Positions 1 through 60,088 are shown, counted from the stretch's first letter. The stretch is 60,088 nt of DNA from an uncultured virus (IMG/VR IMGVR_UViG_3300027861_004722) (IMGVR_UViG_3300027861_004722), one strand, 5' to 3'. The notes: generated by a model not told the origin, from the letters alone. Numbers and translations: made by a program.

Positions 1-5
1 AAGAG

Positions 6-1076
6 ATGATTCAAAAACTCCTAGATATAGGAGTTCTCCAGTTTAATCTAAAAACTAATTCCCTCAGAATCTCCCCTAATGCAGAGACTCTAGCCTGGGA
101 AGAATCTCTAGGTTTTGAACATGTTGCCATCAGACAAAAGAAAAATCTCAACAAATCACGCCTAGATGTTAATACCACTTCTGAGATTATAAAAGGTGTT
201 CATAGACCTATCCCAATGATCGCTGCTAACATGAGCACAGTAACTAATGCAGAATTCTGCATACAACTCTATAAATTAGGGGCCTTCGGTATTTTGCATC
301 GCGCAGCACCCGAGGATTACTTATGTAATGAGATGAGAAAGATAGCGGAAGAATGCAAATGGGCAGCGGGCTCCATAGGGGTTGGTGAGGCTAGCCTGCC
401 TATGGCTAGGAAGTTAATAGATAATGGATGTAATATTCTCGTAATAGATATTGCTCATGGTTACAGTGATTCTGTTATTAATATAGCTAGAAAGCTCAAA
501 GATTTAGCCCCAGATATCAAATTAGTTGTAGGTAATACCACAAATATAGGACTTCTCTTAGAGGCTAAAGATGTAATTGACGCGTTAAAGGTGGGAATTG
601 CTCAAGGCGCAGCTTGCGAAACCAAGAATACTGCAGGTTGCACGGAGAAGCAATTCAGTGCTACTCTGAAATTCAAACATCTATCTAAAGAACTGGGTAT
701 ACCTATTATCAGTGATGGTGGCATACGCGAACCAGCAGATTTCACCAAAGCCGTAGCAGCTGGGGCCAACTCTGTTATGGCAGGCAGTGTGTTTGCTCGT
801 TGCCCAGAAAGCGCTGCCGAAGTCTTGCATAAAGACGGGAATCCTAAGAAAATTTATGCAGGAATGGCGAGTCGATACGTACAGGAGAAGTGGAGAGGGG
901 GCCTTAAAGATGGCACCTGTCCTGAGGGAGGAGTAAGGCTCCTAGATCTAGGAGAGCCACTAGAATCCCTACTTAAAAGATGGTCCGGTGCTCTTAAATC
1001 AGGGATAACCTATGCAGGTGGCAACGATATCCCATCCTTCCAAAACACAGTGGAGTTTCTTAAACTTAAATCATGA
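6..1076 (+). CDS. IMP dehydrogenase / GMP reductase family protein (no CBS domains)
   Basis: Motifs PMIAANM, VIDIAHG, KVGIAQGAAC (catalytic Cys loop), ISDGG, YAGMAS, CPEG; IMPDH vs GMPR cannot be decided by eye. Confidence 0.9.
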   Translation: MIQKLLDIGVLQFNLKTNSLRISPNAETLAWEESLGFEHVAIRQKKNLNKSRLDVNTTSEIIKGVHRPIPMIAANMSTVTNAEFCIQLYKLGAFGILHRAAPEDYLCNEMRKIAEECKWAAGSIGVGEASLPMARKLIDNGCNILVIDIAHGYSDSVINIARKLKDLAPDIKLVVGNTTNIGLLLEAKDVIDALKVGIAQGAACETKNTAGCTEKQFSATLKFKHLSKELGIPIISDGGIREPADFTKAVAAGANSVMAGSVFARCPESAAEVLHKDGNPKKIYAGMASRYVQEKWRGGLKDGTCPEGGVRLLDLGEPLESLLKRWSGALKSGITYAGGNDIPSFQNTVEFLKLKS

Positions 1077-1345
1077 TTGATCCAGAATGCGCTATATGTA
1101 GTGAGCTAATAACCGCCATCGAGAGCCTAGAAAAAATAGTTGGGCACATCGAGTGGGGTTGCCAAGGCTCTTCAAAGAAGTCAGATTTCGGACTAACTAA
1201 AAAATATATTATTGAGAGAGTTGGCGAAATTAAAAAAATGCAAAAGTGGCACGAATACTTCCATTCAACGGGCGAGAGCTTGATGGATACGAATCGTGAT
1301 GTAAACTCAGGGGGGAAGCAGCCCCGACGATGGCGAAAGCCTTAG
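1073..1345 (+). CDS. hypothetical protein
   Basis: ATGA overlap with upstream stop; N-terminal CxxC. Confidence 0.6.
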   Translation: MIDPECAICSELITAIESLEKIVGHIEWGCQGSSKKSDFGLTKKYIIERVGEIKKMQKWHEYFHSTGESLMDTNRDVNSGGKQPRRWRKP

Positions 1346-1354
1346 AGGAAATGA

Positions 1355-2461
1355 ATGGCAAGTTTTACAATTAATAGCGGAGAATTCTTGGATGCAATAT
1401 CCGCAATTTTCCCTCTGGTTCCAAATAAACCGCCTAGAGATATTTTAAAGTGCTTCAAAATAGAAGCTAAGCTAGACCACTCTCTACATATCCACACCAC
1501 AGATCTTGAGACCTTTGCAAGCGTAAAACTTGATACAGGTGTAATGGTGCATGTTGAGGGCTCTTTCACTGTTCCAGCCGCAATCTTATTGGAGTATGCC
1601 AAGTCTCTTGATGGGGGCAATGCAGAATTTCTGGTAACCCCAGAAGAAGCACTCAGGATTTCAGAAGGGGAAGCTATTTTCCAGGTAGGGCTACAAGATA
1701 TAGATGAGTATCCTACCTTCCCAGATATCCCAGAAAACTTAACGCAGGTAGGGCTACCGCTACCTGCGCTAGGAAAAGCACTAACACAAGTTACCTTTGC
1801 GGTGGCGGATAAGGGCAGCCCCAGATGGGGAACACTTAATGCTGTTTGTCTGGAGACTAGCGATAGGGAGGTAGCTCTTATTGGGACGGACACCCACAGA
1901 GTTAGTCTAGTAAAGGTAGAAGTAGACGCTGCCTTGCCCGAGGCAAGCTACCTAGTGCCATCCAAAACACTAGCGCTGATTCCCAAAATCTTCACAGAAG
2001 AAGAAGTTCAGGTTTCCTTTGGAAATACTCACAATTTAGTTTTCTCCGATGAAAAAACCACGATTCTAGTTAGATTATTGCATGGAAATTTTCCACCAGT
2101 AAGAAACTTCATTCCAAATCATCCAAAGGAAGTCGAATTAGACGCGGCTTCTTTCTTAAAACAAGTTAGAAAGTCCTCGTTGGCAACAGATAAGCACAGC
2201 ACCCTGAGGTTAGAGCTATCAAATAATAAAATGAAGCTACTTACTAAAACCAGACAACAAAGAAAAGTAGCAAAGGTTGAGTTCTCTATGGAATACGATG
2301 GAGACGATTTTGAGTTTGCCTTGAACTGTAAGTATCTCATGGATGCACTAAAGGCCTCATCTAATGACCAGCCTATTACGATGCACTTTAACCAAAATAA
2401 CCAACCTATCTTGTTTACGCAAGATAGTTACACGCACTTGATTGTTCCTCAAGTCATTTAG
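1355..2461 (+). CDS. dnaN: DNA polymerase III beta sliding clamp
   Basis: 368 aa; TTDLE, GTDTHR, GNFP, LNCKYLMDAL, C-terminal LIVP; SD GAGG. Confidence 0.93.
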   Translation: MASFTINSGEFLDAISAIFPLVPNKPPRDILKCFKIEAKLDHSLHIHTTDLETFASVKLDTGVMVHVEGSFTVPAAILLEYAKSLDGGNAEFLVTPEEALRISEGEAIFQVGLQDIDEYPTFPDIPENLTQVGLPLPALGKALTQVTFAVADKGSPRWGTLNAVCLETSDREVALIGTDTHRVSLVKVEVDAALPEASYLVPSKTLALIPKIFTEEEVQVSFGNTHNLVFSDEKTTILVRLLHGNFPPVRNFIPNHPKEVELDAASFLKQVRKSSLATDKHSTLRLELSNNKMKLLTKTRQQRKVAKVEFSMEYDGDDFEFALNCKYLMDALKASSNDQPITMHFNQNNQPILFTQDSYTHLIVPQVI

Positions 2462-2469
2462 GAGAAATA

Positions 2470-2787
2470 ATGAAAACGAAAACATATAAAGTATTAGGCG
2501 ATAGAATTCTAGTCCAACGAGACCCACTGCTAGAGCAGGTAGAGGGCCTTCTATTAATGCCGGAGAATATAGAGAAGAAACCTAGTTCTGGAACCGTAAT
2601 TACCTGCGGTAGTAAAGTAGAGGATGTTCAAGAAGGAGACAAAGTCTTTTTTAATGAATACGCCGGATATTTTCTAGACACTGATCAAACCTTAGAGGAA
2701 TCTGATTTGATCGTTATGAGAGAAGATGAGATTCTAGCAATTGAGCAAGAGGCAGAATCTGCCGAAGTTGCCGAAGTCGCTGAATAA
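2470..2787 (+). CDS. groES: co-chaperonin GroES
   Basis: LGDRILV, GTVITCG, VQEGDKVFF, MREDEILA; SD AGGAG. Confidence 0.92.
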   Translation: MKTKTYKVLGDRILVQRDPLLEQVEGLLLMPENIEKKPSSGTVITCGSKVEDVQEGDKVFFNEYAGYFLDTDQTLEESDLIVMREDEILAIEQEAESAEVAEVAE

Positions 2788-2802: not shown

Positions 2803-3438
2803 ATGCGTAAACCTAAAATAGCCCTTGATTTAGATGGGGTAGTAGTTAATTTTCACCAGAAGTTGATTGATATATACAATGATCGGTATCCTGATAAACC
2901 TCTCACAACTAGTGATATAGATTGTGATATAGAGAGCCTGGGCCCAGAACTAGCTAGGCAGCTAATTACCATCTTCAACGAAGATGGTTTCTTGCTTAAT
3001 CTAGAACCCTTCCCTGGCGCAATAAATACAATTTCCCAATTCCAAGATTTAGGATTTAAGGTTACTGTTTGCACAGCCCCCGCTAGAAATTTAGATGGCT
3101 ATGTAAACCCCAATAGTGCGGCAGAGAAATTTGCTTGGCTGCGCAAGCAGCTGCCTTTCTGGGCGGTTAATGCAATTATAACTAAAAACAAAAAAGTAGT
3201 TGGTGCCGATATGTTAATCGATGATACCGCTGAAAACATTATCAGTTGGTGCGATGAACATACAGATGGCATTGGCTATTTAATAAACCAACCCTGGAAT
3301 CAGAAATTTAGACACTACCCAAGCAACTCAATTAGGGGCTCCCTCCCCGGAGTAGCCTCTTTTATAGAAAAATTTTGGTGCCCAGAAAGAGGCAAGTTTT
3401 TTTATAGGTTAGAAGAATTTCACCAAGGTTGGAAATAA
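2803..3438 (+). CDS. 5'(3')-deoxyribonucleotidase, HAD family
   Basis: IALDLDGVV motif I, EK..WL, LIDD, PWN. Confidence 0.85.
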   Translation: MRKPKIALDLDGVVVNFHQKLIDIYNDRYPDKPLTTSDIDCDIESLGPELARQLITIFNEDGFLLNLEPFPGAINTISQFQDLGFKVTVCTAPARNLDGYVNPNSAAEKFAWLRKQLPFWAVNAIITKNKKVVGADMLIDDTAENIISWCDEHTDGIGYLINQPWNQKFRHYPSNSIRGSLPGVASFIEKFWCPERGKFFYRLEEFHQGWK

Positions 3439-3750: not shown

Positions 3751-4009
3751 GTATAAGGTATTTATACCCAGCGACGTCCAAAGGATCTTAAACAAGGTAG
3801 CTTGCAGTTACCACGAAAAAGTAATAACTGTCTTAGACGTAAATAAAGCTGCTGGTATTGTTTTAATAGCTAAAGAACTAACCAAAGAGCTAAACCCAAA
3901 AGGACTATGGGTAGAAGATTTCTGGCTGTTTACCCTTGACCCAGACGGGAAATGCATTTGTGGCATGGAAAGATTAATAGCACAAGGATGTAACTGTGGC
4001 GGAAGATAA
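3725..4009 (+). CDS. hypothetical protein with C-terminal CxC...CxC
   Basis: Overlaps both neighbours; KCICG..QGCNCG. Confidence 0.6.
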   Translation: MPPIKIGNRYKVFIPSDVQRILNKVACSYHEKVITVLDVNKAAGIVLIAKELTKELNPKGLWVEDFWLFTLDPDGKCICGMERLIAQGCNCGGR

Positions 4010-6086
4010 AGATAAAGATAAGAAGCAGGAAAGTAGAAAATTACCTGTAATAGTTGGTAATTTCGATTTCAGGCCCTCGCACGTTCTGGGGTCTTCCGGC
4101 CCTCTGGCTAAGAGTTTGCCTGACTATGAAGTCAGAGGACCCCAGATAACATTAGCAGAGACTATCCAGAAAGCTTTCGAGGATAAGAAAAACTTAGCGG
4201 CAGAAGCAGCAACAGGAACCGGAAAGAGCTTCGCTAATATTTTAGCTGCTTTAGAGACCTCCGCTGGCACCGGCATGCCCGTTGTAATCAGCACTCATAC
4301 TATTGCACTACAAGAGCAGCTAGTCGAGAAGGATATACCTTTTCTGATTGACCAACTACAACTTAGTAATGTCCATGTAGCTTTAGCTAAAGGCAGGGGT
4401 AATTACGCCAGTATTAGACGAGCTAGGATAGCTATCGGAGAAAACCAAAAAGATAGCCAGAAGCTTAGTAGGTGGTTAAATAGCACAGATGATGGAACCT
4501 TATCCAGCATGAGTTCTAGAATAGACCACACAACTTGGAGCAGATCAAAAAGCGACCCAGATCAATGTTTGGGGGAAACCTGCCCAGATTTTGCTGACTG
4601 TTTCTATCAAAAATCAAGACGAGCTTTGGGAGAAGCCCATCTTATTGTCACTAATCACAATCTAGTACTGCTAGATCTTAAGATGAAATCCTCTGGATTA
4701 GGAGCAGTGTTACCCCCATACAAGCATTTAATTTTCGATGAAGGCCATGAGGTAGAAACCGTCGCCAGAAAAGTATTTACTTTCGAACTAAAACAAAAGG
4801 ATATCCCCCTACTTTTTCACGAGGTTTATAATGATAACGGAACAGGTTTCTTAAATCAGATGCTTCTCACAGCTGAGATGACGCTGAGAGAAAACGCGGC
4901 TATCTCCGCTGAACAAGACCCCAAAGCATTAGCTATCAAAGGAGCCGGGGATTCTATAGAGGCTCTATTCGAACAAAACGATGAGTTTTTCCGTAAAGTA
5001 AGTTCTTACGTTGGTTCCTTACCAATGAAAAGATTTATGGAAAAAAACACCATTAAAACCGATATCATGACCTCCTTAGAAGTAGCTTTGTCTTGCCTCA
5101 AACACTTGGATTTTATTTCTAGTGACGACCACAAAGTCGCTTTAGAATTTGCGTCTAAGAAGTGCACAGAAATCGCCCTGGGGATTGATAAGATCTTAGA
5201 ACTCCCTAATGCAGAAGGGAAGGACTATCCGGATATTGTAGCTTGGGCTAGCGCCAGAGGAATGAATAGTTATAGGACATATACCGTCACCTGTGCCCCC
5301 ATATTCCTAGGCCCTACTATGAAAAAGCTAGTATATAGGCCTCTAGATTCTGTTATTTTTACGTCCGCTACGTTATCAACCGGGGGACGTAACCCATTTA
5401 GAATGTTTGAGAGCAGCCTAGGGCTAAAAGAGCCTATGAGACTCAAACTTCCAGCTGTCTTTGATTACAAGAGACAGGCGTCCATCGTAACTATTAAAGA
5501 TATGCCAGAGCAAAAAGATTCTAACTATGCAGAAGCCATGGCAGAGCAAGTTAAGAAATTTTGTAGACTTACTAGAGGAGGTGCCTTCGTTCTGTTCACT
5601 AGTTTTAAAGCAATGAACCAAGTCTATGAACTATCCAAGGTAGGGCTAGAGATGGCAAATTGCGAACTATTTTGCCAAGGAAAAGAGCTTAACAGGAAGC
5701 AAATGATAGAGGCTTTCAAACGGACAAATCGCGGAGTTCTGTTCGGAGTTAGTAGCTTCTGGACGGGCGTTGACGTTCCTGGAAGAGCCTTACGTAACCT
5801 AATCATTACCAAGCTGCCGTTCCCAGCACCTAATGATCCACTGATGCAGGCACAGAAAGAAATTTACGAAAAGTTCGGAAGGAATTTCTTTTATGAGCGT
5901 GCCATCCCTATGACAGCGATTCTGCTAAAACAAGGCTTCGGAAGGCTGATACGTAAATCTACGGACAAGGGCATTGTTGTGATTCTTGATAGCCGGGTAG
6001 TAACAAAAAAGTATGGCCCCATGTTATTAAATGTGCTACCAGCTGAGTGCCCAAAAAAATATGGCACAAGAGCAAGTAAGCTATAA
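3996..6086 (+). CDS. DinG/YoaA-family SF2 helicase
   Basis: Walker A AATGTGKS, DEGH, TSAT, FWTGVDVPG, QGFGRLIR; three Cys of the FeS site (C-x4-C-x5-C), first Cys position reads GNYASIRR. Confidence 0.93.
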   Translation: MAEDKDKDKKQESRKLPVIVGNFDFRPSHVLGSSGPLAKSLPDYEVRGPQITLAETIQKAFEDKKNLAAEAATGTGKSFANILAALETSAGTGMPVVISTHTIALQEQLVEKDIPFLIDQLQLSNVHVALAKGRGNYASIRRARIAIGENQKDSQKLSRWLNSTDDGTLSSMSSRIDHTTWSRSKSDPDQCLGETCPDFADCFYQKSRRALGEAHLIVTNHNLVLLDLKMKSSGLGAVLPPYKHLIFDEGHEVETVARKVFTFELKQKDIPLLFHEVYNDNGTGFLNQMLLTAEMTLRENAAISAEQDPKALAIKGAGDSIEALFEQNDEFFRKVSSYVGSLPMKRFMEKNTIKTDIMTSLEVALSCLKHLDFISSDDHKVALEFASKKCTEIALGIDKILELPNAEGKDYPDIVAWASARGMNSYRTYTVTCAPIFLGPTMKKLVYRPLDSVIFTSATLSTGGRNPFRMFESSLGLKEPMRLKLPAVFDYKRQASIVTIKDMPEQKDSNYAEAMAEQVKKFCRLTRGGAFVLFTSFKAMNQVYELSKVGLEMANCELFCQGKELNRKQMIEAFKRTNRGVLFGVSSFWTGVDVPGRALRNLIITKLPFPAPNDPLMQAQKEIYEKFGRNFFYERAIPMTAILLKQGFGRLIRKSTDKGIVVILDSRVVTKKYGPMLLNVLPAECPKKYGTRASKL

Positions 6087-6649: not shown

Positions 6650-7141
6650 ATGGCATTACCAATGCTAGCCCTAGATCTGGCCACCAAGACTGGCTGGGCT
6701 ATGAAAGATAGAACAGGCGCTATAGCGTCTGGGATGCAAGAATTTGCACTTAAGCGTGGAGAAAGCAAAGGAATGCGATTTCTACGTTTTCGTAAATGGC
6801 TCAGAGAAATGCTCGCCCTTGGGGAGATAGGAACAAGTTTTTCCGAAGATGAGCCCGGGGTTATAGCTTTTGAGCAAGCACATCATAGAGGTGGGGCTGC
6901 TACTGAGTTATGTGTAGGACTAATGACAGATACCCTAGCCGAGGCCGCCCGAATAAGCGCGGAACACATGCCCATCCATACGGGACAGCTTAAAAAGTGG
7001 GCTACTGGCAAGGGCAATACTGGAAAAGCGGGTATGATGGCTCGGGCCCAAGAACTTTATCCAGGTATTGAACTCATCGATGACAATCATGCAGATGCTC
7101 TTCTTCTATTAAGCTATGCTTTAGAAGAAATTGGTGTCTAG
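6650..7141 (+). CDS. RuvC-like Holliday junction resolvase
   Basis: LALDLA, IAFEQ, KKWATGKGN.GK, DDNHADAL acidic catalytic set. Confidence 0.85.
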   Translation: MALPMLALDLATKTGWAMKDRTGAIASGMQEFALKRGESKGMRFLRFRKWLREMLALGEIGTSFSEDEPGVIAFEQAHHRGGAATELCVGLMTDTLAEAARISAEHMPIHTGQLKKWATGKGNTGKAGMMARAQELYPGIELIDDNHADALLLLSYALEEIGV

Positions 7142-18378: not shown

Positions 18379-18418
18379 TACGATATTGACATATCTCTAT
18401 ACTATGTACTAATAGGGC

Positions 18419-24140: not shown

Positions 24141-24154
24141 ACAAGTAGACATGA

Positions 24155-24178: not shown

Positions 24179-24180
24179 CC

Positions 24181-27054: not shown

Positions 27055-27062
27055 ACCCACTT

Positions 27063-42350: not shown

Positions 42351-42372
42351 AAAATTTTGATAGACTGGCACT

Positions 42373-43704: not shown

Positions 43705-46239
<2,535 letters not shown>

Positions 46240-48428: not shown

Positions 48429-48517
48429 ATAGCTAATCCTTAGTATTTATTATATCAGTTAAGAAAACTTTTCGCAATTACTTCTATTTTTGTATAATGA
48501 TTACTGAGGTAACTACG

Positions 48518-49144: not shown

Positions 49145-49152
49145 GAGCCTAA

Positions 49153-49839: not shown

Positions 49840-49847
49840 GGATTAGT

Positions 49848-50519
49848 ATGCCAAACACCCACGTAGGTAAATTAGGATCATTCGAGTCTTTCCAAGGATG
49901 GTCTGCCTTCGGAGATCTAGGTGTTTTTGCCCCAAATGTGCCTTGCGAGTCTATATGCGCCCAAGCCATGCCCACGGCGATGGGCGCTTGCATTCCTCAG
50001 TGTGGCCAAGAAAAGGCGCAATATGAACGCTCACAAGCACAGGCAGCAGCTTACACAGCTGGCCAGAAATCACGACCCGCACCCGCACCAGCCCCTTCCG
50101 GAGTAAATGCAGGCCAAGTAATGCAAGGTATTGGTGCTATCTTAGCTCCTCTAGCTAAAGCTGGCGTTGGTATCTACGCAGCCCACCAGCAAGCAAAATT
50201 AGCCGAAATGCAATTTAAGCAGGGAGGGGGCCAGCAGTCTTTTGGGCCACCCCCACCAATGTTTTTCCCACCACCACCCCCTAAAAAATCACCAGTAATG
50301 ATGATCGTCTTAGCAGTAGTCGGCCTAGCAATGATGGGTGGAATGTTTATGATGATGAGCGGCGGAGACGAAGGCGGTCAAGCCCAAGGCGGTCAAGGTG
50401 GCGGTCAAATGCCAATGCTCACTCCCAATTCTGCTGGTGGGGTAACGTATGCAGCCCCTCCTAGAGTAACCAAGGTGAAGAGGGTTCGCAAGCGCCGCAA
50501 GCGCCGTCGCCGCCCATAA
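49848..50519 (+). CDS. LG-motif membrane protein with Met-rich TM and poly-Arg tail
   Basis: KLGSFESFQG..FGDLG; 4 Cys; GIGAILAPLAKAGVGIY; RKRRKRRRRP. Confidence 0.8.
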   Translation: MPNTHVGKLGSFESFQGWSAFGDLGVFAPNVPCESICAQAMPTAMGACIPQCGQEKAQYERSQAQAAAYTAGQKSRPAPAPAPSGVNAGQVMQGIGAILAPLAKAGVGIYAAHQQAKLAEMQFKQGGGQQSFGPPPPMFFPPPPPKKSPVMMIVLAVVGLAMMGGMFMMMSGGDEGGQAQGGQGGGQMPMLTPNSAGGVTYAAPPRVTKVKRVRKRRKRRRRP

Positions 50520-50588
50520 CTAACCTACTAATCTAATCATCAGAAAAGATTAGTTAATATCTCCAAAAATAGGTATACTATTAATAGC

Positions 50589-50885
50589 ATGTATATATCA
50601 ACATTAGGCCAAGAAGACCAAGAATTTATCGAACCCCCTAGAGATTCTTCTGCTGAAACTATTCATGCAGTAGCAGACCTAACTCGCGCCATAGCAGAGC
50701 CCGCTGCGCAGGCTTTTGCCATACACGCAAGGACAGAACTCAATAAAGAGAGGCTCAAAGCTGGGCTTCCTATACTGAGGCCAGGAAGACCCCTCCCTCC
50801 ACCCCCACCCGCCCCAAAAGATAATTTTGTATTAGGGGGCATAGCTTTACTTGTCATCGTCTATTTGTTATTCTTTAAGTCTTAG
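50589..50885 (+). CDS. small LG-motif membrane protein
   Basis: MYISTLGQ; ELNKERLKAGLP; poly-Pro; C-terminal TM. Confidence 0.75.
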   Translation: MYISTLGQEDQEFIEPPRDSSAETIHAVADLTRAIAEPAAQAFAIHARTELNKERLKAGLPILRPGRPLPPPPPAPKDNFVLGGIALLVIVYLLFFKS

Positions 50886-50897
50886 CTTAGGAATTAT

Positions 50898-51296
50898 ATG
50901 CAAAAAAAACTCTCATACCCTGAAGTTCTGCAAAAAATCGATGAACTTAGGTCTGCAGGTTTATCCGATACAGACCCACAAATAAGAAAGCTCAAAGTTC
51001 AGCTTTGGGGCTATTTGGAAAAGAAAAATAAGAAAAAATCTAACAAAGTAGTTCCTACTGTAATGGCAATAAAAACCATAAAGTTGAATCCCAGAACACT
51101 GGGAAACACTAAGCTACCGGCCCCTGCAAACACACCGACCCCCGCAAACACAGGCACTGAACTTGAAAAAGCTAAAAGTGGTTCCCAGATAGAAAAACAA
51201 GCAGATAAACCCTTGAAGCCTAATATCAAATATGTGCTGCTAGGAATTATTATTGCTATTGCAATGGTTTGCTATAAGTTCTATAAAAAAGATTAG
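50898..51296 (+). CDS. basic membrane protein, C-terminal TM
   Basis: KLNPRTLGN; YVLLGIIIAIAMVCY-KK. Confidence 0.7.
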   Translation: MQKKLSYPEVLQKIDELRSAGLSDTDPQIRKLKVQLWGYLEKKNKKKSNKVVPTVMAIKTIKLNPRTLGNTKLPAPANTPTPANTGTELEKAKSGSQIEKQADKPLKPNIKYVLLGIIIAIAMVCYKFYKKD

Positions 51297-51619
51297 ATAT
51301 ACTTTTTACATACCGCCCAGGAAAGCAGAGCACCAAATACGCCAGCGGCTACAACACTTACGCCAACAATAGCGTACATACCCGCTCTTGGTTTTCCAAA
51401 GGGCGCAAAAGATTGTTCAATTCCAATAGTTTGCACAGCTATCTCTGGCCTTATCAGCTTCATCATCAGCGGATGATCGGACTGTATAGCAGTATTTGAA
51501 GGCGTTCCCGGAACAAGTATGTCAGCTAAATTTACCACTATTTTGGGCGTCACGTTGCTATCAATAACAAGTTCCGCTTGGCCAGCAACAGCAGTTAGTA
51601 GAGATCTCATGTCGGGCAT
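51293..51619 (-). CDS. small membrane protein, C-terminal TM
   Basis: DHPLMMKLIRPE..APFG; TATAAT 6 nt upstream. Confidence 0.7.
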   Translation of the reverse strand: MPDMRSLLTAVAGQAELVIDSNVTPKIVVNLADILVPGTPSNTAIQSDHPLMMKLIRPEIAVQTIGIEQSFAPFGKPRAGMYAIVGVSVVAAGVFGALLSWAVCKKYI

Positions 51620-51730: not shown

Positions 51731-52225
51731 ATGCTAGAAATTCAGGGTGATTTGTTCACCTACAACCCACGCGCCATACCACTAGAAGCCACCCCAAATA
51801 CAGTAGAAGAGCTGTTAGCTTTTAGTCCTTCTCATGGAAACATACTCAGGTGCATAACGACCAACGGAGTAGTTAATAAATTAGGATATTTAGTTATGGG
51901 GGCCGGAGTTGCGAAACTAGCAAAGCGCAGATTCAGAGAACTACCCTATTTACTTGGACAAAAAATAGATGAAAGAGGAAATCATGTTTATATCATTGAT
52001 GAATATGGAATGGCTAGTTTCCCCACAAAGCATCACTGGAAAGATGATTCCGATATTAATTTGATTGTGCAAAGCTGCAGAGAACTCTTACATTTTTCTA
52101 AAAAATGGGATTATGTAATCCTCCCCAGGCCCGGGTGTGGTTTAGGGGGTTTAGCCTGGAATGAAGTCAAACCTATAATTAGCGAAATTTTACATCAAGA
52201 TAAATTCATAGTTGTCCATCTGTAG
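51731..52225 (+). CDS. macro domain (ADP-ribose binding/hydrolase) protein
   Basis: GDLF, TTNG, VMGAGVA, FPTKHHWK, PRPGCGLGGL. Confidence 0.9.
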   Translation: MLEIQGDLFTYNPRAIPLEATPNTVEELLAFSPSHGNILRCITTNGVVNKLGYLVMGAGVAKLAKRRFRELPYLLGQKIDERGNHVYIIDEYGMASFPTKHHWKDDSDINLIVQSCRELLHFSKKWDYVILPRPGCGLGGLAWNEVKPIISEILHQDKFIVVHL

Positions 52226-52257
52226 GACTATTACAGAAGAACAGGTAACATAGGTAT

Positions 52258-52971
52258 ATGAACTTTTCACTAAACGCGACCGAAAAAACAGTAAAAAAAG
52301 CTATATCAAAAGCCGCTGAGGAATTAACTATTGACGATGTAGTTGATTGGAAATCCCCAGCATGGTCCCATTTAATGGCAATAACAGCGGGCCTGAAGCC
52401 TTTCTCTGACCCAGCTATTTTGATCATACCGGAGGTCTTTCGGGCCTTTTTGCCGAGAGTAGATTTCTCGCCAACAACACAGGACCGCCAGCTTGCTGCC
52501 CAAGCTCTGAAAAATGCCCTATTTCATGTGAATTATGCAATCATAGAAACCACTAAAATGGCCTATAGCTCAGTTCTCCAGTCTCCTGTAGGAGGATTGC
52601 TGGGATCATTGCAGCAAAGCATTCCAGGAGGAATAGACCAGTTTCTTGGGGAGTTACAAAACGAGCTTAATAACTATGATATGAGAAAGCTATACTTCCA
52701 AACAGGTCTTGCTATGATGTCAGATGAGCAAGCTTGGCTAGGAAAGCACCACACCTTTGCTGTTGGGGTACTAAATATTTACGATGCAGACCCCTCAAGA
52801 ATTCTGACTGATAGTGAATACTTTAGTTTTGCTTATGATCTTGGTATGCTAAGTGACGGTGTTATTACTTTCGATCCTCTAAACCAGAAGAAGGAAAGTT
52901 TATCACCAGATCAAATGATGTCAGCACTGACCCAGACCCTCAGCCAAGCATCAGGACAAGATATAGCCTAA
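52258..52971 (+). CDS. hypothetical alpha-helical protein
   Basis: 237 aa ORF between macro and ART-like genes. Confidence 0.7.
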   Translation: MNFSLNATEKTVKKAISKAAEELTIDDVVDWKSPAWSHLMAITAGLKPFSDPAILIIPEVFRAFLPRVDFSPTTQDRQLAAQALKNALFHVNYAIIETTKMAYSSVLQSPVGGLLGSLQQSIPGGIDQFLGELQNELNNYDMRKLYFQTGLAMMSDEQAWLGKHHTFAVGVLNIYDADPSRILTDSEYFSFAYDLGMLSDGVITFDPLNQKKESLSPDQMMSALTQTLSQASGQDIA

Positions 52972-52997
52972 ACGTTTCCAGTTTGCTAGAATAAAGC

Positions 52998-53474
52998 ATG
53001 GAAACCGAACTCTGGTATCATGGAACACCTAATCCTGACTCAATTCTGGATAAGGGGTTCAATATAAACCATCAACGAACCAGTGACCCCGGAGATTTCG
53101 GCTGGGGAACTTACGCCAGCAGATCCCTCTCTAGATCCCGGTGCTATGGAACTGTATTGGGTGTTTTAGTGGATACAAGCTCTTGCGCTTATATATCTAA
53201 CCCCTACTTCCTTAAAGGCATAAATCAGGTCCTTCCCTCAACATTTGAAGAGCACTTATTTTATGATATAGTTTTTGATACTAGCGATCCCGCCCTCTAT
53301 CCAACAATGCTAACTATAAAGGGACCTCGCGTATCACGAGAAGCCATATGCAAAGAAATCAGGGACAAGTTTTTAGAAAATGGCTATACTGGTATAGCTA
53401 CAGATTATAATATCGGGGAACTAGTGATCTTTGATCACGAAATAATTAAAGACGTATTCCTGCTAGACCGATAG
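52998..53474 (+). CDS. ADP-ribosyltransferase-like protein
   Basis: WYHGT, FGWGTYAS, GYTGI, ELVIFD. Confidence 0.72.
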   Translation: METELWYHGTPNPDSILDKGFNINHQRTSDPGDFGWGTYASRSLSRSRCYGTVLGVLVDTSSCAYISNPYFLKGINQVLPSTFEEHLFYDIVFDTSDPALYPTMLTIKGPRVSREAICKEIRDKFLENGYTGIATDYNIGELVIFDHEIIKDVFLLDR

Positions 53475-53486: not shown

Positions 53487-54089
53487 CTACTCTTTCTTTT
53501 TACGCTTCTTTTTCTTCTCTTCTTCTTCGTGCGCTTTCTTACTAACACGCTTCAGAGCCTTGGTTTTTGGGGCATCTTCAGGATTCTTCCTAGGACGACC
53601 GCGAGGACGCTTGGGCTTATCTATCTTAGGATGCTTTCTAGGACGACCGCGAGGACGCTTGGGCTTATCTATCTTAGGATGCTTTCTAGGACGACCGCGA
53701 GGACGCTTGGGCTTATCTATCTTAGGATGCTTTCTAGGACGACCGCGAGGACGCTTGGCTTTTTCCACTCTTACCTTTTTGGGCCTGCCCCTTGTTGCCT
53801 TTTTCTTAGGAAGGCGCTTAAGGGGTTCCTTTGCAGCAAGGAGAACCTTCTTGGCTTCCGCCAGCCTCTCGGCCATATCTTTAGATGGACGACCACGCCC
53901 CCTAGGAGCGAACCATAATCTTTTAGCAGAACGAACTGTTAGCTCTTTAGTGCGTCGTTTTGGCAGCTTTTTTGTGGTTTTCCTAGTCTTTGGAGACTTC
54001 TTAGCATTTGCTACCTTCTTAGTTTTTGGGTTTTTTGCAGCGGCAGCAGGGTTTCGCCTTAAGTTCTTTTTAGGGTTTTTGTTTTTCAT
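53487..54089 (-). CDS. AT-hook histone-like protein
   Basis: Six GRP AT-hooks (PRGRPRK x4); extremely Lys/Arg-rich; CAGGA SD. Confidence 0.85.
   Translation of the reverse strand: MKNKNPKKNLRRNPAAAAKNPKTKKVANAKKSPKTRKTTKKLPKRRTKELTVRSAKRLWFAPRGRGRPSKDMAERLAEAKKVLLAAKEPLKRLPKKKATRGRPKKVRVEKAKRPRGRPRKHPKIDKPKRPRGRPRKHPKIDKPKRPRGRPRKHPKIDKPKRPRGRPRKNPEDAPKTKALKRVSKKAHEEEEKKKKRKKKE
53590..53758. repeat. perfect 48-nt tandem repeat, about 3.5 copies (codes KRPRGRPRKHPKIDKP on minus strand)
   Basis: CTAGGACGACCGCGAGGACGCTTGGGCTTATCTATCTTAGGATGCTTT at 53590, 53638, 53686; partial at 53734. Confidence 0.95.
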
Positions 54090-56715: not shown

Positions 56716-57450
56716 ATGGATTTCAATATTTTAAGTAGAGCCCATTTTCAGGATTCTGTTTTGACCTTTCCTATCAACACAGGCTCCGGGGCATCCACGG
56801 CGTATTCCCATGATCTTAACGGTGGATCCTTTTGCTTGAAAAGAGCAGAGTGGAGATATAGCGTTCCGGGAGGCCAACTAGATGATTACGGGTGGCCCAA
56901 GGTCCCAATGCAGATATCCATTAACGGGGCGATGCAAGACCAGACCGCTAGCCCAGTAGTCATATCTCCACCGGCTCTTCTTAAAAATAAAGTAGAAGTA
57001 TCCATTAGTAACCCTTCTTCTCTGCAGGTTACCATCCATTTAACTATTACTGGAACCTTGGTTACCCCCATAGGAGATAGTGCATTGACCAGTAAAGAGA
57101 TGTTAGGCTATTCTCTTCTTGATGATTCACAGAAAGGAATGCTTGCTCTGGAGGAAGCCGCAACAGATAGGATGAGAGAGCATCTCAAGCAACTAGGGTT
57201 TGACTCACAGACGCAAGAGCAGATAATGCTAGGGCAATCTAACACTAGCAACATCAACCCTTCGGCACTACCCTCCGCAGTAATAAAGGCATTAGACACA
57301 GAATCTAATAACACCAAAAAACCAGAGGAGCTTAAATCTCTTCTAGTCGGAGATCTCGTTCAGTTTAAATTAACGAACAGTAGCGAGATTACTCTTGATG
57401 AAATACAAGCATTATCAGACTATCTCTTGAGCAAAGAGTGGAAAAAATAA
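56716..57450 (+). CDS. hypothetical protein, paralog of 31794-32651
   Basis: DFNILSRAHF, KEMLGY..LD, KEWKK. Confidence 0.75.
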   Translation: MDFNILSRAHFQDSVLTFPINTGSGASTAYSHDLNGGSFCLKRAEWRYSVPGGQLDDYGWPKVPMQISINGAMQDQTASPVVISPPALLKNKVEVSISNPSSLQVTIHLTITGTLVTPIGDSALTSKEMLGYSLLDDSQKGMLALEEAATDRMREHLKQLGFDSQTQEQIMLGQSNTSNINPSALPSAVIKALDTESNNTKKPEELKSLLVGDLVQFKLTNSSEITLDEIQALSDYLLSKEWKK

Positions 57451-57836
57451 TGAAAAGAAAGACCAGAGGAAGACGGGCTGCTATTAAAGCAGCCCGTCTT
57501 TCGAAATTTTATGCGCATCGCGTCGGGGCAGTGTTATTCAATGGGCCCCGGCTAATATCTCTTGGATACAATGTTCATAAATCTCATCCCGAGAATACGT
57601 GTTTCACGCGTCATGCAGAATTCAATTCATTAAAACGAACAAAGACCAGAACAAACAATCTAGTAATGTATGTAGCTAGATTAACAAGAACCGATAAGAT
57701 CAGCCTAGCCCGTCCCTGCCCAGCTTGCCAAATAAAGATAAGAGAAGCCGGTATCCGGGAAGTATACTACACCACACACTCAGGCGAGCTAGAAAAACTT
57801 ACTTTTGATGCTGAATTGGTAGGTTCTAATGTCTGA
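57450..57836 (+). CDS. cytidine/dCMP deaminase-family Zn protein
   Basis: RVGAVL, GYN, HAE, RPCPAC; TAATG overlap. Confidence 0.88.
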   Translation: MKRKTRGRRAAIKAARLSKFYAHRVGAVLFNGPRLISLGYNVHKSHPENTCFTRHAEFNSLKRTKTRTNNLVMYVARLTRTDKISLARPCPACQIKIREAGIREVYYTTHSGELEKLTFDAELVGSNV

Positions 57837-58754: not shown

Positions 58755-58782
58755 ACACAAATAATAACATATTGTGCTTTAA

Positions 58783-59616
58783 TTAGAAACCTTTCTTAGC
58801 ACACTGATCTGCGACCGGGCACGAGGGACAATCGGGATCTTTCACAACACATATTACTTTAGCTAGTTGAATAAGATGCTTATGCTTGCTTACCGGTTTA
58901 GTAGAGGTAGTAAAGTCTTCAAATTTCCGGAGCTTGTCAGTAGGGGCATCATTTAAATTAATAACCCCTAGCCTAGACAGGACACGATCTGAATGCTCCT
59001 CAAAAGGTGCCTTTGCAGTTTTCTTCCAGCAATACTCCAGAAAGTCGGTTACACAAGCAGGAAAAACAGGCTCCTTGCGCTTTCTATATTTGAGAAATCT
59101 CTTATAGAAATTACTGTGTTTCGGGCAAGCCCGCACAGGACTTTCCGCTACAACCATTTTATTCCTCTCATTCATAATATCCCATGAATCGGGGATACCT
59201 TTGAGTTGGGCCAGATAGTTATCTATCAGATCCGGCTGTAGTTGGGGCATATTTGTCAAGTCAATTGTATCTAGGGTGCTCCAGGCGTTTTGTAGAAAAT
59301 CCTTGATAGTGAGGGCTAATTCCCAAGTATCGCCTACTGCCCCGGCCTGTTTTAGAGATTCATCTATTTCTCGTAGGGTGCTAACTCGAACCTCATTCCA
59401 GCCCGAGAACTGCTTATTGCCGAACTCCCCTAGTTGAACCCCCCTAAAGATACGAACAGCGTCTCTGGCCACATCAGGGCTTTCAAAGTAGGAGATCAAG
59501 TAGTGGAGAACTCTGTCCGTAGTACCGGGCCTTTCCGGCAACTCCTGAGTAGCCCAAAATACTTTTTGATTACCAAAAGCCTGTTTTAAGCGCGGCCAAA
59601 AAAGTTCACTGTTCAT
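58783..59616 (-). CDS. endonuclease III-like HhH/[4Fe-4S] protein, divergent
   Basis: C-x6-C-x2-C-x5-C FCL motif; RVLSRLG; WNEVRVS; AAGGTG SD. Confidence 0.8.
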   Translation of the reverse strand: MNSELFWPRLKQAFGNQKVFWATQELPERPGTTDRVLHYLISYFESPDVARDAVRIFRGVQLGEFGNKQFSGWNEVRVSTLREIDESLKQAGAVGDTWELALTIKDFLQNAWSTLDTIDLTNMPQLQPDLIDNYLAQLKGIPDSWDIMNERNKMVVAESPVRACPKHSNFYKRFLKYRKRKEPVFPACVTDFLEYCWKKTAKAPFEEHSDRVLSRLGVINLNDAPTDKLRKFEDFTTSTKPVSKHKHLIQLAKVICVVKDPDCPSCPVADQCAKKGF

Positions 59617-59696
59617 ATTTCACCTTATTTGCTATAGCTCGACGGATCTCACTATAGCAAATACTGGGCTCTTGACAAGACTTGCGGTCAAAGAGT

Positions 59697-59725
59697 TTGA
59701 CAATCGCTTAGTATAGAGTTACACT
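59697..59725 (+). promoter_or_regulatory. sigma70-type promoter, leaderless geometry
   Basis: TTGACA-17-TACACT, ATG 6 nt downstream. Confidence 0.75.
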
Positions 59726-59731
59726 GGATTT

Positions 59732-60088
59732 ATGATCAAAGAACGTATTTTTCGTAAAAAAATAATCGTAGACAATTTTCTACTGCTCACTAAAGAAGAA
59801 ATAGCAGAAGACTCCTTAGATAAAGCCAAACCACTAAAAAAAGAAGCAGAGTTAGTAGCTCAAATTCATTATACCCCTCGGGGCTATTTCTGTGAAGTTG
59901 AGCAGTTTTCTCCAATGGATGTTTGGAATGAAGATTTATTCTGTAAAATCGAAGGAATAAACGATGGCTCCCCAGAAGGAGATCTTTCCGAAAAGTTCTT
60001 CGACACAAAATTAGCATCAATGCACTTCATCACACGTCGCTTAAAAAGATTAGGCTGGGATCCGCTAGACGGATGGCATAACTCTTGA
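59732..60088 (+). CDS. hypothetical protein
   Basis: 118 aa ORF with own promoter. Confidence 0.65.
   Translation: MIKERIFRKKIIVDNFLLLTKEEIAEDSLDKAKPLKKEAELVAQIHYTPRGYFCEVEQFSPMDVWNEDLFCKIEGINDGSPEGDLSEKFFDTKLASMHFITRRLKRLGWDPLDGWHNS

What the first reader, a model, noticed from the sequence alone, without database searches (positions are those of the whole stretch)
1..60088. Candidate giant bacterial virus with a membrane-rich (possibly lipid-containing, tailless) virion
Seen: host-like genes sit outside their usual operons (dnaN without dnaA/recF, infC without rpmI-rplT, groES about 41 kb from groEL, grpE without dnaK). Promoters are sigma70-type. About 18 small TM proteins with basic tails, a 6x AT-hook basic protein and beta-rich structural-looking genes are present, but no recognisable Caudoviricetes head/tail gene. 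Known: jumbo phages carry such host-like genes, whereas many small virion membrane proteins typify internal-membrane viruses (PRD1, PM2, P23-77 types), whose characterised bacterial members have small genomes. Inference: this could be a jumbo-sized membrane-containing bacterial virus.
Basis: partly seen in the sequence, partly recalled or inferred. Interest (0 to 1): 0.85.

Follow-up and report, generated by a model that had tools for sequence, protein, structure and literature searches.

The report
Accessory-gene region of marine megaphage-like genome
This 60-kb stretch, full of chaperone, translation-rescue, nucleotide and small membrane-protein genes, comes from a seawater genetic element of at least 600 kb that is most likely a very large tailed phage, and nothing within reach shows a lipid-containing, tailless virion.

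Summary
The gene observations are real. dnaN, infC, groES, groEL and grpE sit outside their usual operons. There are about 20 small hydrophobic-segment proteins and a six-AT-hook protein. No recognisable head or tail gene lies in the window or in the 10 kb beyond it.

SmpB, ClpS, methionine aminopeptidase and UMP kinase lie just past the window end.

The window is part of a 164,581-bp metagenome contig. Of 10 of its proteins looked up by exact sequence, 8 are in the collection, and all 8 also lie on a 599,739-bp contig. Relatives occur on contigs of 310-938 kb. "Giant" is therefore supported.

"Membrane-containing, tailless" is not supported. The rest of the genome could not be fetched. A bona fide tailed 442-kb IMG/VR phage with the same accessory repertoire has 60-kb windows with as many small membrane proteins. 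The one structural-looking protein has a jelly-roll domain shared with small Caudovirales proteins.

Most likely this is an early/middle accessory region of an uncultivated marine megaphage from a lineage absent from the phage collections searched. Rivals are a giant plasmid-like or cellular genome, and a non-tailed virus.

The parts
6..1076 (+). IMPDH/GMP reductase family enzyme (nucleotide metabolism)
   Evidence: Pfam PF00478 3.9e-59; phrog_9582
1355..2461 (+). DNA polymerase III beta sliding clamp (dnaN), without dnaA or recF
   Evidence: Three Pfam beta-clamp domains; phrog_947 1.8e-63
2470..2787 (+). GroES co-chaperonin
   Evidence: Pfam Cpn10 6e-15
2803..3438 (+). 5'-deoxynucleotidase (NT5C family)
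   Evidence: Pfam PF06941 1.1e-23
3996..6086 (+). DinG-like helicase, used as the lineage marker
   Evidence: Pfam Helicase_C_2 6.6e-43. 43 metagenomic relatives at 46-100% identity, then about 37% to Planctomycetota and other PVC bacteria
6650..7141 (+). RuvC-like Holliday junction resolvase
   Evidence: phrog_159 7.9e-15
9570..13517 (+). 1315-aa fusion of glycosyltransferase, TPR, methyltransferase and glycosyltransferase
   Evidence: Pfam GT2, TPR and Methyltransf_11; phrog_13126, phrog_2170 and phrog_6636; 33% identity to a glycosyltransferase region of podovirus MW202524.1
14479..15291 (+). Thymidine kinase
   Evidence: Pfam TK 6.4e-26
15460..16413 (+). Repeat protein (three copies of an LPTY..GD..H.D..GRLL unit) with a C-terminal jelly-roll domain; candidate virion fibre or decoration protein
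   Evidence: 48 homologues; BLASTP E 1e-18 to a 144-aa ORF in the structural region of podovirus MW202524.1; AF2 C-terminal domain pLDDT above 90; 89 BFVD matches at E<=1e-3, the listed top ones from tailed phages
17287..18925 (+). Full-length DnaJ (17287-18378) and peptide deformylase (18419-18925)
   Evidence: Pfam DnaJ, DnaJ_C, DnaJ_CXXCXGXG and Pep_deformylase 9.3e-39
21273..22046 (-). Xer-like tyrosine recombinase (weak match)
   Evidence: Pfam Phage_integrase 1.4e-4; NCBIfam XerD 1.1e-12, far below its cut-off
23598..24765 (.). Translation initiation factor IF3 (23598-24140, +) and HNH endonuclease (24181-24765, -)
   Evidence: Pfam IF3_N 2.1e-29, IF3_C and HNH 1.3e-14
26632..27057 (+). 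tmRNA gene; inferred 28-codon tag ORF at 26722-26805 ending LAVA
   Evidence: Rfam RF00023 at 104.1 bits (gathering score 47), full model 1-374; translation. ARAGORN did not call it
27034..27960 (+). Membrane-anchored trypsin/DegP-like serine protease. The listed start overlaps the tmRNA 3' end, so the true start is probably later
   Evidence: Pfam Trypsin_2 4.9e-15; hydrophobic segment at residues 28-46
29687..31209 (-). Tandem pair of paralogous basic membrane proteins (257 and 249 aa)
   Evidence: BLASTP E 8e-9 between them; hydrophobic segments
32652..33431 (+). PhoH-like ATPase
   Evidence: Pfam PhoH 1.3e-55; phrog_170
34994..36055 (+). DUF444/YeaH-like (vWA) protein
   Evidence: Pfam DUF444 8.7e-70; best phage match is the 595-kb uncultured phage LR756511.1 at 36.5%
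38091..38645 (+). GrpE nucleotide exchange factor, with no DnaK nearby
   Evidence: Pfam GrpE 1.2e-22; the upstream 612-aa ORF has no family
39052..41188 (.). DHH/DHHA1 phosphoesterase (39052-40200, -) and 5'-3' flap exonuclease (40280-41188, +)
   Evidence: Pfam DHH and DHHA1 (weak), 5_3_exonuc_N 1.4e-30
41652..43410 (+). J-domain protein (41652-42350) and second full-length DnaJ (42373-43410)
   Evidence: Pfam DnaJ families
43714..45321 (+). GroEL chaperonin, strongly diverged
   Evidence: Pfam Cpn60 2.9e-72; phrog_5725 1.3e-143; at most about 51% identity to any named cellular GroEL
45307..46239 (-). Possible secreted outer-membrane beta-barrel protein (a lead only)
   Evidence: N-terminal signal-like segment and C-terminal ...LLAF read from the sequence; the Atlas's nearest named clusters are outer-membrane barrel families at 0.85-0.86; the AF2 single-sequence model is uninformative
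46356..51619 (.). Cluster of eight ORFs with hydrophobic segments, mostly C-terminal anchors with charged tails, interrupted by a phosphatase gene (46948-47406, -). It includes a tandem paralogue trio at 48497-50519
   Evidence: Kyte-Doolittle scan; trio alignment at 35-36% identity with a conserved amphipathic segment, poly-Gly and a Met-rich anchor; the family has 84 representatives at E<=1e-3 among 1.84 billion; one member lies on the 599,739-bp contig
51731..53474 (+). Macrodomain (DarG-like ADP-ribosyl glycohydrolase, 51731-52225) and a weak PARP-like protein (52998-53474); possible counter-defence
   Evidence: NCBIfam DarG 2.4e-15, below its cut-off; phrog_335; Pfam PARP 7.8e-4, below its cut-off
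53487..54089 (-). Very basic (pI 12) protein with six AT hooks
   Evidence: Pfam AT_hook; sequence; 48-bp tandem repeat of 3.8 copies at 53574-53758
57438..57836 (+). dCMP/cytidine deaminase
   Evidence: Pfam PF00383 1.1e-10; phrog_174

Best explanation
The window is an accessory (early/middle, non-structural) region of the genome of an uncultivated marine megaphage, that is, a bacterial virus with a genome of at least about 600 kb. It is most likely a tailed Caudoviricetes phage whose head, packaging and tail module lies elsewhere in the genome.

How it most likely works:
- Genes are read from sigma70-like promoters by the host RNA polymerase (inferred).
- The region supplies the infected cell with the phage's own chaperonin (GroEL/GroES). 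It also supplies two DnaJ proteins, a J-domain protein and GrpE, which would drive the host's DnaK (inferred).
- It carries ribosome rescue and nascent-chain processing functions: tmRNA, SmpB, IF3, peptide deformylase, methionine aminopeptidase and ClpS.
- It carries nucleotide salvage: TK, dCMP deaminase, NT5C, UMP kinase, an IMPDH/GMP-reductase-family enzyme and MazG.
- It carries replication and repair parts: beta clamp, DinG-like helicase, flap nuclease and RuvC-like resolvase.
- It carries a macrodomain/PARP-like pair, possibly for counter-defence.
- It carries lineage-specific, tandemly duplicated tail-anchored membrane proteins. These most likely sit in the host cytoplasmic membrane, for exclusion, lysis timing or a membrane-bound replication site (inferred, not tested).

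Shown: the gene identities, the tmRNA, the genome size of at least 599,739 bp, the lineage, and recurrence in seawater. Inferred: the viral nature, the tailed virion and all functions.
For: Phage-typical genes sit among bacterial-type ones, with most ORFs unmatched. PhoH, HNH, TK, dCMP deaminase, NT5C, MazG, a RuvC-like resolvase and the flap nuclease are present. 50 of 82 window ORFs have no Pfam hit and 56 of 82 no PHROG hit.

There is no rRNA, tRNA or ribosomal protein in 70 kb. Coding density is 96% under code 11.

Passages of PMC7162821 list tmRNA, SmpB, IF3 and peptide deformylase for huge phages.

Of 10 proteins looked up by exact sequence, 8 are in the collection, and all 8 lie on a 599,739-bp contig.

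Helicase, repeat protein and GroEL relatives share contig-length fingerprints: 310,374, 116,592, 104,411 and 65,117 for all three, and seven further lengths for two of the three. This indicates a coherent lineage.

IMG/VR records G001 (340 kb) and G002 (442 kb) share 14 of 100 ORFs with this region. The shared genes are IMPDH (G002 only), NT5C, helicase, glycosyltransferase, both DnaJ, PDF, IF3, HNH and trypsin-like protease (both G002 only), PhoH, DUF444, GroEL and MAP. G002 has a major head protein (3.2e-75), portal, large terminase, tail sheath and baseplate wedge.

The jelly-roll repeat protein and the big glycosyltransferase both match the structural region of podovirus MW202524.1. The fold of its C-terminal domain matches 89 BFVD proteins at E<=1e-3, and the listed top matches are from tailed phages.

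The same sequence covers all 30 bins of 36001-56000 in 4 of 4 seawater or marine runs laid.
Against: No hallmark gene (major capsid protein, terminase, portal or tail) was seen, because only 70 kb of at least 600 kb could be read.

The contig and its close relatives are absent from the IMG/VR collection held here and from INPHARED. Virus-calling pipelines may therefore not have scored them as viral.

Relatives on contigs of 859,269 and 938,049 bp exceed the largest phage genome I found in print, 841,704 bp (preprint 10.1101/2025.01.14.633092).

The same huge-phage paper says some large putative plasmids carry analogous translation genes.

C-terminally anchored proteins (11 of 84 ORFs) exceed every control, including the tailed 442-kb phage, whose richest 60-kb window has 6.

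Sharing with G001 and G002 is limited to host-like genes at 25-53% identity.
Confidence: 0.68

Rival explanations
1. The element is a giant bacterial virus with an internal lipid membrane and no tail (double or single jelly-roll capsid, FtsK/A32-type packaging). The many tail-anchored small proteins are its virion membrane proteins.
For: No head or tail gene was found among 99 ORFs in 70 kb. C-terminally anchored proteins are 11 of 84 ORFs, against 35 of 1246 in IMG/VR loci and at most 6 per 60-kb window in a tailed 442-kb phage. Two tandemly expanded, lineage-restricted membrane-protein families are present. The lineage is absent from the phage collections searched.
Against: No jelly-roll capsid protein and no FtsK/HerA-type ATPase was found; the P-loop proteins present are PhoH, TK and a helicase. 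The membrane-protein clusters are flanked by GroEL, phosphatases and a macrodomain, not by capsid or packaging genes. The only jelly-roll found is a 90-residue domain whose fold matches are small proteins of tailed phages, with a sequence relative in a podovirus structural region. Total and small membrane-protein counts are matched by windows of a tailed huge phage. From general knowledge (recalled), all bacterial viruses above 200 kb described so far are tailed, and characterised internal-membrane phages have genomes of about 10-20 kb.
Confidence: 0.05
2. The element is not a virus. It is a giant plasmid-like extrachromosomal element, or the small genome of an unrecognised cell, that carries phage-like genes.
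For: Contigs of relatives reach 859,269 and 938,049 bp. No virion gene was seen. A passage of PMC7162821 notes that large putative plasmids carry analogous translation-related gene suites. The helicase is nearest to cellular PVC-group helicases at about 37%. The element is not in the IMG/VR collection held.
Against: There is no rRNA, tRNA, ribosomal protein or aminoacyl-tRNA synthetase in 70 kb. No plasmid replication, partition or conjugation family was hit. Nucleotide-salvage, PhoH, HNH and resolvase genes typical of phages are present. Chaperone genes are duplicated (two DnaJ, two IscA). The lineage-specific repeat protein was found in 1 of 401 genomes of one phylum sample (a weak match to one domain only) and 0 of 401 of another.
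Confidence: 0.15
3. It is a phage, but the very long contigs are host chromosome carrying an integrated copy, so the phage itself is much smaller than 600 kb.
For: A Xer-like tyrosine recombinase gene lies at 21273-22046. Contig lengths of relatives are very uneven, from 104 to 938 kb. I could not inspect any long contig.
Against: The 70 kb read shows no transition to core-metabolic host genes and an even G+C of 0.39-0.48. The 164,581-bp contig already exceeds most prophages. Proteins from both ends of the 70 kb all map to the same 599,739-bp contig. The lineage-specific protein was not found as a full-length match in 802 PVC-group genomes sampled.
Confidence: 0.1

Closest known systems
Huge phages and megaphages of Caudoviricetes (Al-Shayeb et al. 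2020, PMC7162821; e.g. LR756511.1 at 595 kb, LR756501.1 at 735 kb)
   Same: The genome is above 500 kb. It carries tmRNA, SmpB, IF3 and peptide deformylase, as the paper's passages list. The DUF444 protein's best phage match is LR756511.1 (36.5%), and GroEL matches LR756501.1 at 45.9%.
   Different: There is no DNA similarity and only 25-48% protein identity for the five proteins searched against INPHARED. Hallmark genes were not seen here. The lineage's helicase and repeat protein have no close relative in INPHARED or in the IMG/VR collection held.
IMG/VR records IMGVR_UViG_3300029288_005873 (G002, 441,904 bp) and IMGVR_UViG_3300012931_000759 (G001, 340,392 bp)
   Same: They share 14 of 100 ORFs: IMPDH (G002 only), NT5C, helicase, glycosyltransferase, both DnaJ, PDF, IF3, HNH and trypsin-like protease (both G002 only), PhoH, DUF444, GroEL and MAP. 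Helicase lies next to GroEL and IF3 next to PDF in them. G002 is tailed: head protein, portal, terminase, sheath and baseplate.
   Different: Identity is only 25-53%. None of the window's unmatched ORFs or membrane-protein families is shared. Their G+C is 0.56 and 0.44. Their tail-anchored protein density is lower.
Mar_Mega_1, a marine megaphage (PMC9723777; part 1 of 2 of the text read)
   Same: It is marine, 656,628 bp, and has one tmRNA. Most of its genes have no assigned function.
   Different: The record OU342829.1 is not in the collection held, so no sequence comparison was possible. Whether it belongs to the same lineage is unknown.
Internal-membrane icosahedral phages (PRD1, PM2 and P23-77 types)
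   Same: Many small membrane proteins.
   Different: Those genomes are about 10-20 kb (recalled). Their membrane-protein genes lie in the structural operons next to the jelly-roll capsid and packaging ATPase genes (recalled). Here no such capsid or ATPase gene was found and the genome is at least 600 kb.
Podovirus MW202524.1 (Caudoviricetes sp., 42,585 bp)
   Same: A 144-aa ORF in its structural region is homologous to the window's repeat protein (E 1e-18). It lies beside glycosyltransferase and methyltransferase genes, as in the window.
   Different: It is a small genome and nothing else is shared. The ORF is unannotated there and its role is untested.

Membership tests
Caudoviricetes huge phages / megaphages | HK97-fold major capsid protein | tested here: inconclusive
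   None among 82 window ORFs and 17 ORFs beyond, by Pfam and PHROGs. Only 70 kb of at least 600 kb could be read. PHROGs does find the head protein of the comparator G002 at 3.2e-75.
Caudoviricetes huge phages / megaphages | Large terminase and portal | tested here: inconclusive
   None in the 70 kb (same calls).
Caudoviricetes huge phages / megaphages | Tail genes (sheath, tube, baseplate, fibres) | tested here: inconclusive
   No tail family was hit. One protein (15460-16413) is homologous to an ORF beside a fibre-like gene in a podovirus.
Caudoviricetes huge phages / megaphages | Genome above 200 kb (jumbo) or above 500 kb (mega) | tested here: met
   8 of 10 exact proteins from across the 70 kb lie on a 599,739-bp contig. 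This is taken from a 'longest contig' field, and the contig itself was not inspected.
Caudoviricetes huge phages / megaphages | Bacterial-type translation and ribosome-rescue genes, as reported for the group | tested here: met
   tmRNA, SmpB, ClpS and MAP, IF3 and PDF. Compare the passages of PMC7162821.
Internal-membrane icosahedral viruses (PRD1 / PM2 / P23-77 types) | Double jelly-roll, or paired single jelly-roll, major capsid protein | tested here: inconclusive
   No capsid family was hit in 99 ORFs. The only jelly-roll found is a 90-residue C-terminal domain matching small Caudovirales proteins. Most of the genome is unread.
Internal-membrane icosahedral viruses (PRD1 / PM2 / P23-77 types) | FtsK/HerA (A32-type) packaging ATPase | tested here: inconclusive
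   None in 99 ORFs. The P-loop proteins found are PhoH, thymidine kinase and a DinG-like helicase.
Internal-membrane icosahedral viruses (PRD1 / PM2 / P23-77 types) | Small membrane-protein genes embedded in the structural operon beside the capsid and ATPase genes (feature recalled) | tested here: not met
   The clusters at 29687-31209 and 46356-51619 are flanked by a protease, GroEL, phosphatases and a macrodomain gene.
Cellular chromosome | rRNA, tRNA, ribosomal-protein and aminoacyl-tRNA synthetase genes | tested here: not met
   No rRNA and no tRNA in 70 kb. No ribosomal protein or synthetase family was hit.
tmRNA (Rfam RF00023) with SmpB | Score above the family's gathering score over the full model; a tag reading frame ending in a hydrophobic degron; the SmpB partner | tested here: met
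   104.1 bits against 47, model positions 1-374. A 28-codon frame ends ...TLAVA-stop (the position of the resume codon is inferred from the alignment). SmpB Pfam 7.7e-45 lies 5 kb beyond the window.

The most novel reading that the evidence does not exclude
This marine lineage (contigs from 0.6 to 0.94 Mb) is a giant bacterial virus that is not a tailed phage. It would be an internal-membrane, jelly-roll-capsid virus whose expanded families of tail-anchored proteins build the virion membrane. That would be a bacterial counterpart of the giant viruses of eukaryotes.
Probability: 0.05. Interest if true: 0.95.

Novelty: new member of a known kind. Interest (0 to 1): 0.5.

Why it matters
If it is a megaphage, it marks a diverse marine lineage that none of the phage collections searched here contains. 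About 40-50 distinct members were seen for each of three genes. Relatives sit on contigs longer than any phage genome I found in print. If those contigs are whole virus genomes, they would move the upper size limit for phages towards 0.9 Mb.

The region packs an unusually complete proteostasis and ribosome-rescue kit into 70 kb: GroEL/ES, three J-proteins, GrpE, tmRNA, SmpB, IF3, PDF, MAP and ClpS. It also carries an unexplained expansion of tail-anchored membrane proteins. Both are testable leads on how very large phages run an infected cell.

For the scan, it shows that a 60-kb window without head or tail genes says little about virion type in a genome this large.

Tried and rejected
- No whole genome is held for the window.
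- Exact end patterns were not found in viral contigs.
- The source record is not held for whole-record search, so the other 94 kb of the contig and the 599,739-bp contig could not be read.
- Single-protein searches of IMG/VR with the 612-aa ORF and with GroEL gave no locus.
- The Atlas search on the 612-aa ORF gave scores under 0.9, which are leads only.
- PHROGs at E<=0.05 on 30 unmatched ORFs gave only weak hits. For 29687-30460 these were E 3e-4 to 0.045 to endolysin, tail and tape-measure families over a Gly-rich hydrophobic segment, which I read as composition, not homology.
- The helicase alignment scan of GTDB species genomes returned only matches at 30-42% identity. The same alignment in IMG/VR gave 27-41%.
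- The repeat-protein alignment in IMG/VR gave one 6.4-kb contig at 33%.
- OU342829.1 (Mar_Mega_1) is not in the phage collection held.
- The Pfam tail-sheath and HK97-capsid models found nothing in G001 or G002, although PHROGs did in G002.
- The repeat-protein profile was searched in 5 genomes, 401 genomes of the phylum of a Planctomycetaceae MAG (1 weak one-domain match) and 401 of the phylum of an Akkermansiaceae MAG (none). It was not found in those searched.
- GroEL gave no host signal. The nearest named cellular proteins, at about 50-51%, come from several phyla.
- The AF2 model of the putative outer-membrane protein from a single sequence had mean pLDDT 38 and is uninformative.
- The N-terminal repeats of the jelly-roll protein were not modelled with confidence.
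- No RNA holder was listed among the sequencing runs.

Full report
**What is in the window.** A greedy set of non-overlapping ORFs (>=35 aa) gives 90 ORFs covering 96% of the 60,088 bases under code 11. G+C is even, at 0.39-0.48. Of 82 ORFs scanned, 32 hit a Pfam family at E<=1e-3 and 26 hit a PHROG at E<=1e-5. The identified genes fall into six groups.
- Chaperones: GroES 2470-2787, GroEL 43714-45321, full-length DnaJ 17287-18378 and 42373-43410, a J-domain protein 41652-42350, and GrpE 38091-38645.
- Translation and nascent-chain functions: IF3 23598-24140 and peptide deformylase 18419-18925.
- Nucleotide metabolism: an IMPDH/GMP-reductase-family enzyme, NT5C, thymidine kinase and dCMP deaminase.
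- DNA functions: beta clamp 1355-2461, DinG-like helicase 3996-6086, RuvC-like resolvase, flap exonuclease, a DHH phosphoesterase, an HNH endonuclease and a weak Xer-like recombinase.
- Others: PhoH, DUF444/YeaH, IscA, a GNAT, an MtnB-like aldolase, phosphatases, a macrodomain and a weak PARP-like protein, and a 1315-aa glycosyltransferase-TPR-methyltransferase fusion.
- Unmatched: about half of the ORFs match nothing.

Rfam finds a full-length tmRNA at 26632-27057 (104 bits against a gathering score of 47), which ARAGORN missed. Aligned to the family consensus, it carries a 28-codon tag frame that ends in ...LAVA (the resume codon is inferred). There is no tRNA and no rRNA.

**Beyond the window.** One scan of the metagenome collection found the window's end on contig Ga0233414_10000004 (164,581 bp). 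Locus L001 is identical to window 50029-60088 and adds 10 kb. From the coordinates, the window must be the reverse complement of about 45.9-106.0 kb of that contig (inferred). The added 10 kb encodes a second IscA, UMP kinase (above NCBIfam's cut-off), SmpB, ClpS, methionine aminopeptidase and MazG, plus unmatched ORFs. None is structural.

**Check of the observation.** The gene-order statements are correct: dnaN without dnaA or recF, infC without rpmI-rplT, groES 41 kb from groEL, and grpE without an Hsp70 gene in reach. The basic protein at 53487-54089 (-) has six AT hooks and a 48-bp tandem repeat. Sigma70-like sites are mildly enriched in 40001-60000 (45 against 34.8 +/- 5.8). Eight of the 13 best end 7-35 nt before an ORF start (one search read).

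For membrane proteins I had only a crude Kyte-Doolittle scan (19-residue window, mean >=1.6). The window has 20 of 84 ORFs (>=50 aa) with a hydrophobic segment, 19 of them small, and 11 with a C-terminal anchor. The controls were as follows.

| Source | ORFs | With hydrophobic segment | Small | C-terminal anchor |
|---|---|---|---|---|
| This window | 84 | 20 | 19 | 11 |
| 48 of 68 IMG/VR loci | 1246 | 178 | 118 | 35 |
| 43 of 80 bacterial loci | 877 | 266 | 62 | 14 |
| G002 (tailed 442-kb phage), richest 60-kb window | n/a | up to 24 | up to 19 | up to 6 |
| G001, richest 60-kb window | n/a | up to 23 | up to 14 | up to 3 |

Loci under 15 kb or with runs of N were dropped from the first two control sets. 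So "many small membrane proteins" is true but is not unusual for a tailed huge phage. Only the density of tail-anchored proteins stands out.

Two tandem paralogue families exist. One is a trio at 48497-50519 with a conserved amphipathic segment, a poly-Gly stretch and a Met-rich anchor. The other is a pair at 29687-31209. A profile of the trio finds only 84 representatives at E<=1e-3 among 1.84 billion.

**Size and lineage.** Of 10 proteins from across the 70 kb looked up by exact sequence, 8 are in the protein collection, and all 8 lie on a contig of 599,739 bp. The repeat protein and one trio member lie there too.

The helicase has 43 relatives at 46-100% identity before identity drops to about 37%. 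The repeat protein has 48 relatives in all. GroEL has about 40 at 59% or more, with a tail that merges into cellular GroELs near 50%.

The "longest contig" values recur across the three searches.
- 310,374, 116,592, 104,411 and 65,117 appear for all three genes.
- 114,024 and 154,770 appear for helicase and GroEL.
- 859,269 and 36,733 appear for repeat protein and GroEL.
- 47,759, 37,515 and 27,378 appear for helicase and repeat protein.

I read equal lengths as the same contigs, hence a lineage with conserved gene content. A helicase 75% identical is on a contig of 938,049 bp. The NCBI prefix given for it is a whole-metagenome set, not a genome bin (passage in PMC10434023).

The window's sequence is held, at half or more of the sampled words, by 10 of 18 listed seawater or marine runs; 3 runs are flagged as possible sources. 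In 4 of 4 runs laid, all 30 bins of 36001-56000 are covered. Of the 32 listed pieces, 31 have no differing letter and one has a single differing letter.

**Relatives and host.** INPHARED has no DNA match. Protein matches there are 25-48% identical. The best DUF444 match is the 595-kb uncultured phage LR756511.1, and GroEL also matches the 735-kb LR756501.1. The IMG/VR collection held here has no close relative. That is a one-gene hint of a PVC-group host, and GroEL gives no signal. A signal-peptide protein that ends in ...LLAF (45307-46239, -) may be an outer-membrane barrel. That would fit a diderm host, but it is only a lead.

**Test of virion type.** Four things can be said.
1. None of 99 ORFs hits a capsid, terminase, portal, tail or FtsK/A32-type ATPase family, even at loose thresholds.
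2. Two IMG/VR huge phages, G001 (340 kb) and G002 (442 kb), share 14 of the 100 ORFs, all host-like, at 25-53% identity. Both have a terminase. G002 has a major head protein (3.2e-75), portal, terminase, sheath and baseplate wedge. All lie within about 85 kb of its 442 kb (66 ORFs of at least 230 aa from 296 kb onward were scanned, and 7 that crossed locus borders were left out). If a 600-kb genome keeps a module of that size in one place, a random 70-kb stretch misses it about three times in four (my arithmetic).
3. The one structural-looking gene, 15460-16413, has three repeats and a confidently folded C-terminal eight-strand sandwich. BFVD gives 89 matches at E<=1e-3, and the listed top ones are small proteins of tailed phages. 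The best PDB matches are Ena pilus jellyrolls and small plant-virus coat proteins at E about 1e-3. It is homologous (E 1e-18) to an unannotated ORF in the structural region of podovirus MW202524.1. That ORF lies between glycosyltransferase genes and a fibre-like gene. The window's giant glycosyltransferase matches the same region. This fits a glycan-related fibre or decoration module of the kind tailed phages carry.
4. The membrane-protein clusters are not next to any capsid or packaging gene.

**Most likely mechanism.** The window is an early/middle accessory region read by the host polymerase. It re-equips the infected cell for folding, ribosome rescue, N-terminal processing, nucleotide supply and replication. 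It also inserts lineage-specific tail-anchored proteins into the host membrane. The gene identities are shown; all functions are inferred.

**Rivals.**
- A plasmid-like element or small cell (0.15). This is favoured by the extreme contig lengths, the absence of any virion gene seen, and the paper's remark that large putative plasmids carry similar translation genes. It is disfavoured by the lack of any cellular core or plasmid gene in 70 kb.
- An integrated phage within host contigs (0.10).

**Literature.** PMC7162821 (passages) reports IF3, PDF, tmRNA and SmpB in huge phages up to 735 kb. PMC9723777 (part 1 of 2) describes a 656,628-bp marine megaphage with one tmRNA. Preprint 10.1101/2025.01.14.633092 (part 1 of 2) reports 841,704 bp as the largest, classed as Caudoviricetes, and notes that virus-calling tools disagree on it. 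Searches for "megaphage" with "Planctomycetes", for "huge phages" with "marine" and "Planctomycetota", and for "largest phage genome" turned up nothing that describes this lineage. That holds only for the library searched.

Noticed in passing
window 26632-27057 (+): A full-length tmRNA found by Infernal (104 bits) but not called by ARAGORN. It has an unusually long inferred tag of 28 codons. The ORF listed as the trypsin-like protease (start 27034) overlaps its 3' end, so that start is probably wrong.
   Followed up: partly
L001 12923-14515 (-), 2.9-4.5 kb beyond the window end: A 530-aa Cys-rich protein studded with about twenty RRNP / FRRNP motifs. It matches no family in Pfam, PHROGs or NCBIfam.
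   Followed up: no
window 55331-56692 (+): A 453-aa protein with a very Cys-rich middle (CxC and CxxC runs) and a weak, below-cut-off match to prokaryotic E2 family D (3e-5). It sits near a macrodomain and a weak PARP-like gene, which suggests a possible modification or counter-defence island.
   Followed up: no
window 53574-53758: A 48-bp tandem repeat (3.8 copies, 97% matches) encodes the repeated AT-hook unit of the pI-12 protein. Copy number could vary between strains.
   Followed up: partly
window 43714-45321 (+): The GroEL is only about 50-51% identical to any named cellular GroEL, and the nearest ones come from several unrelated phyla. This points to an old or fast-evolving viral chaperonin clade.
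   Followed up: partly
window 16415-16834 (+): The C-terminal end of this 139-aa protein resembles the alternative C-terminal domain carried by some relatives of the neighbouring repeat protein (rows P0140, P0142, P0163 and P0165 of alignment A2). This suggests domain shuffling within a small gene cassette.
   Followed up: no
G002 (IMGVR_UViG_3300029288_005873), L192-L193: Three copies of a phrog_4645 endonuclease and a LAGLIDADG homing endonuclease are interspersed among the tail sheath and head genes of this 442-kb phage.
   Followed up: no
L198 (G246:C89:10540-10851): One of 401 genomes sampled from the phylum of a Planctomycetaceae MAG has a 155-aa ORF that matches only the jelly-roll domain of the repeat protein (E 8.2e-7). 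It may be a prophage gene.
   Followed up: no
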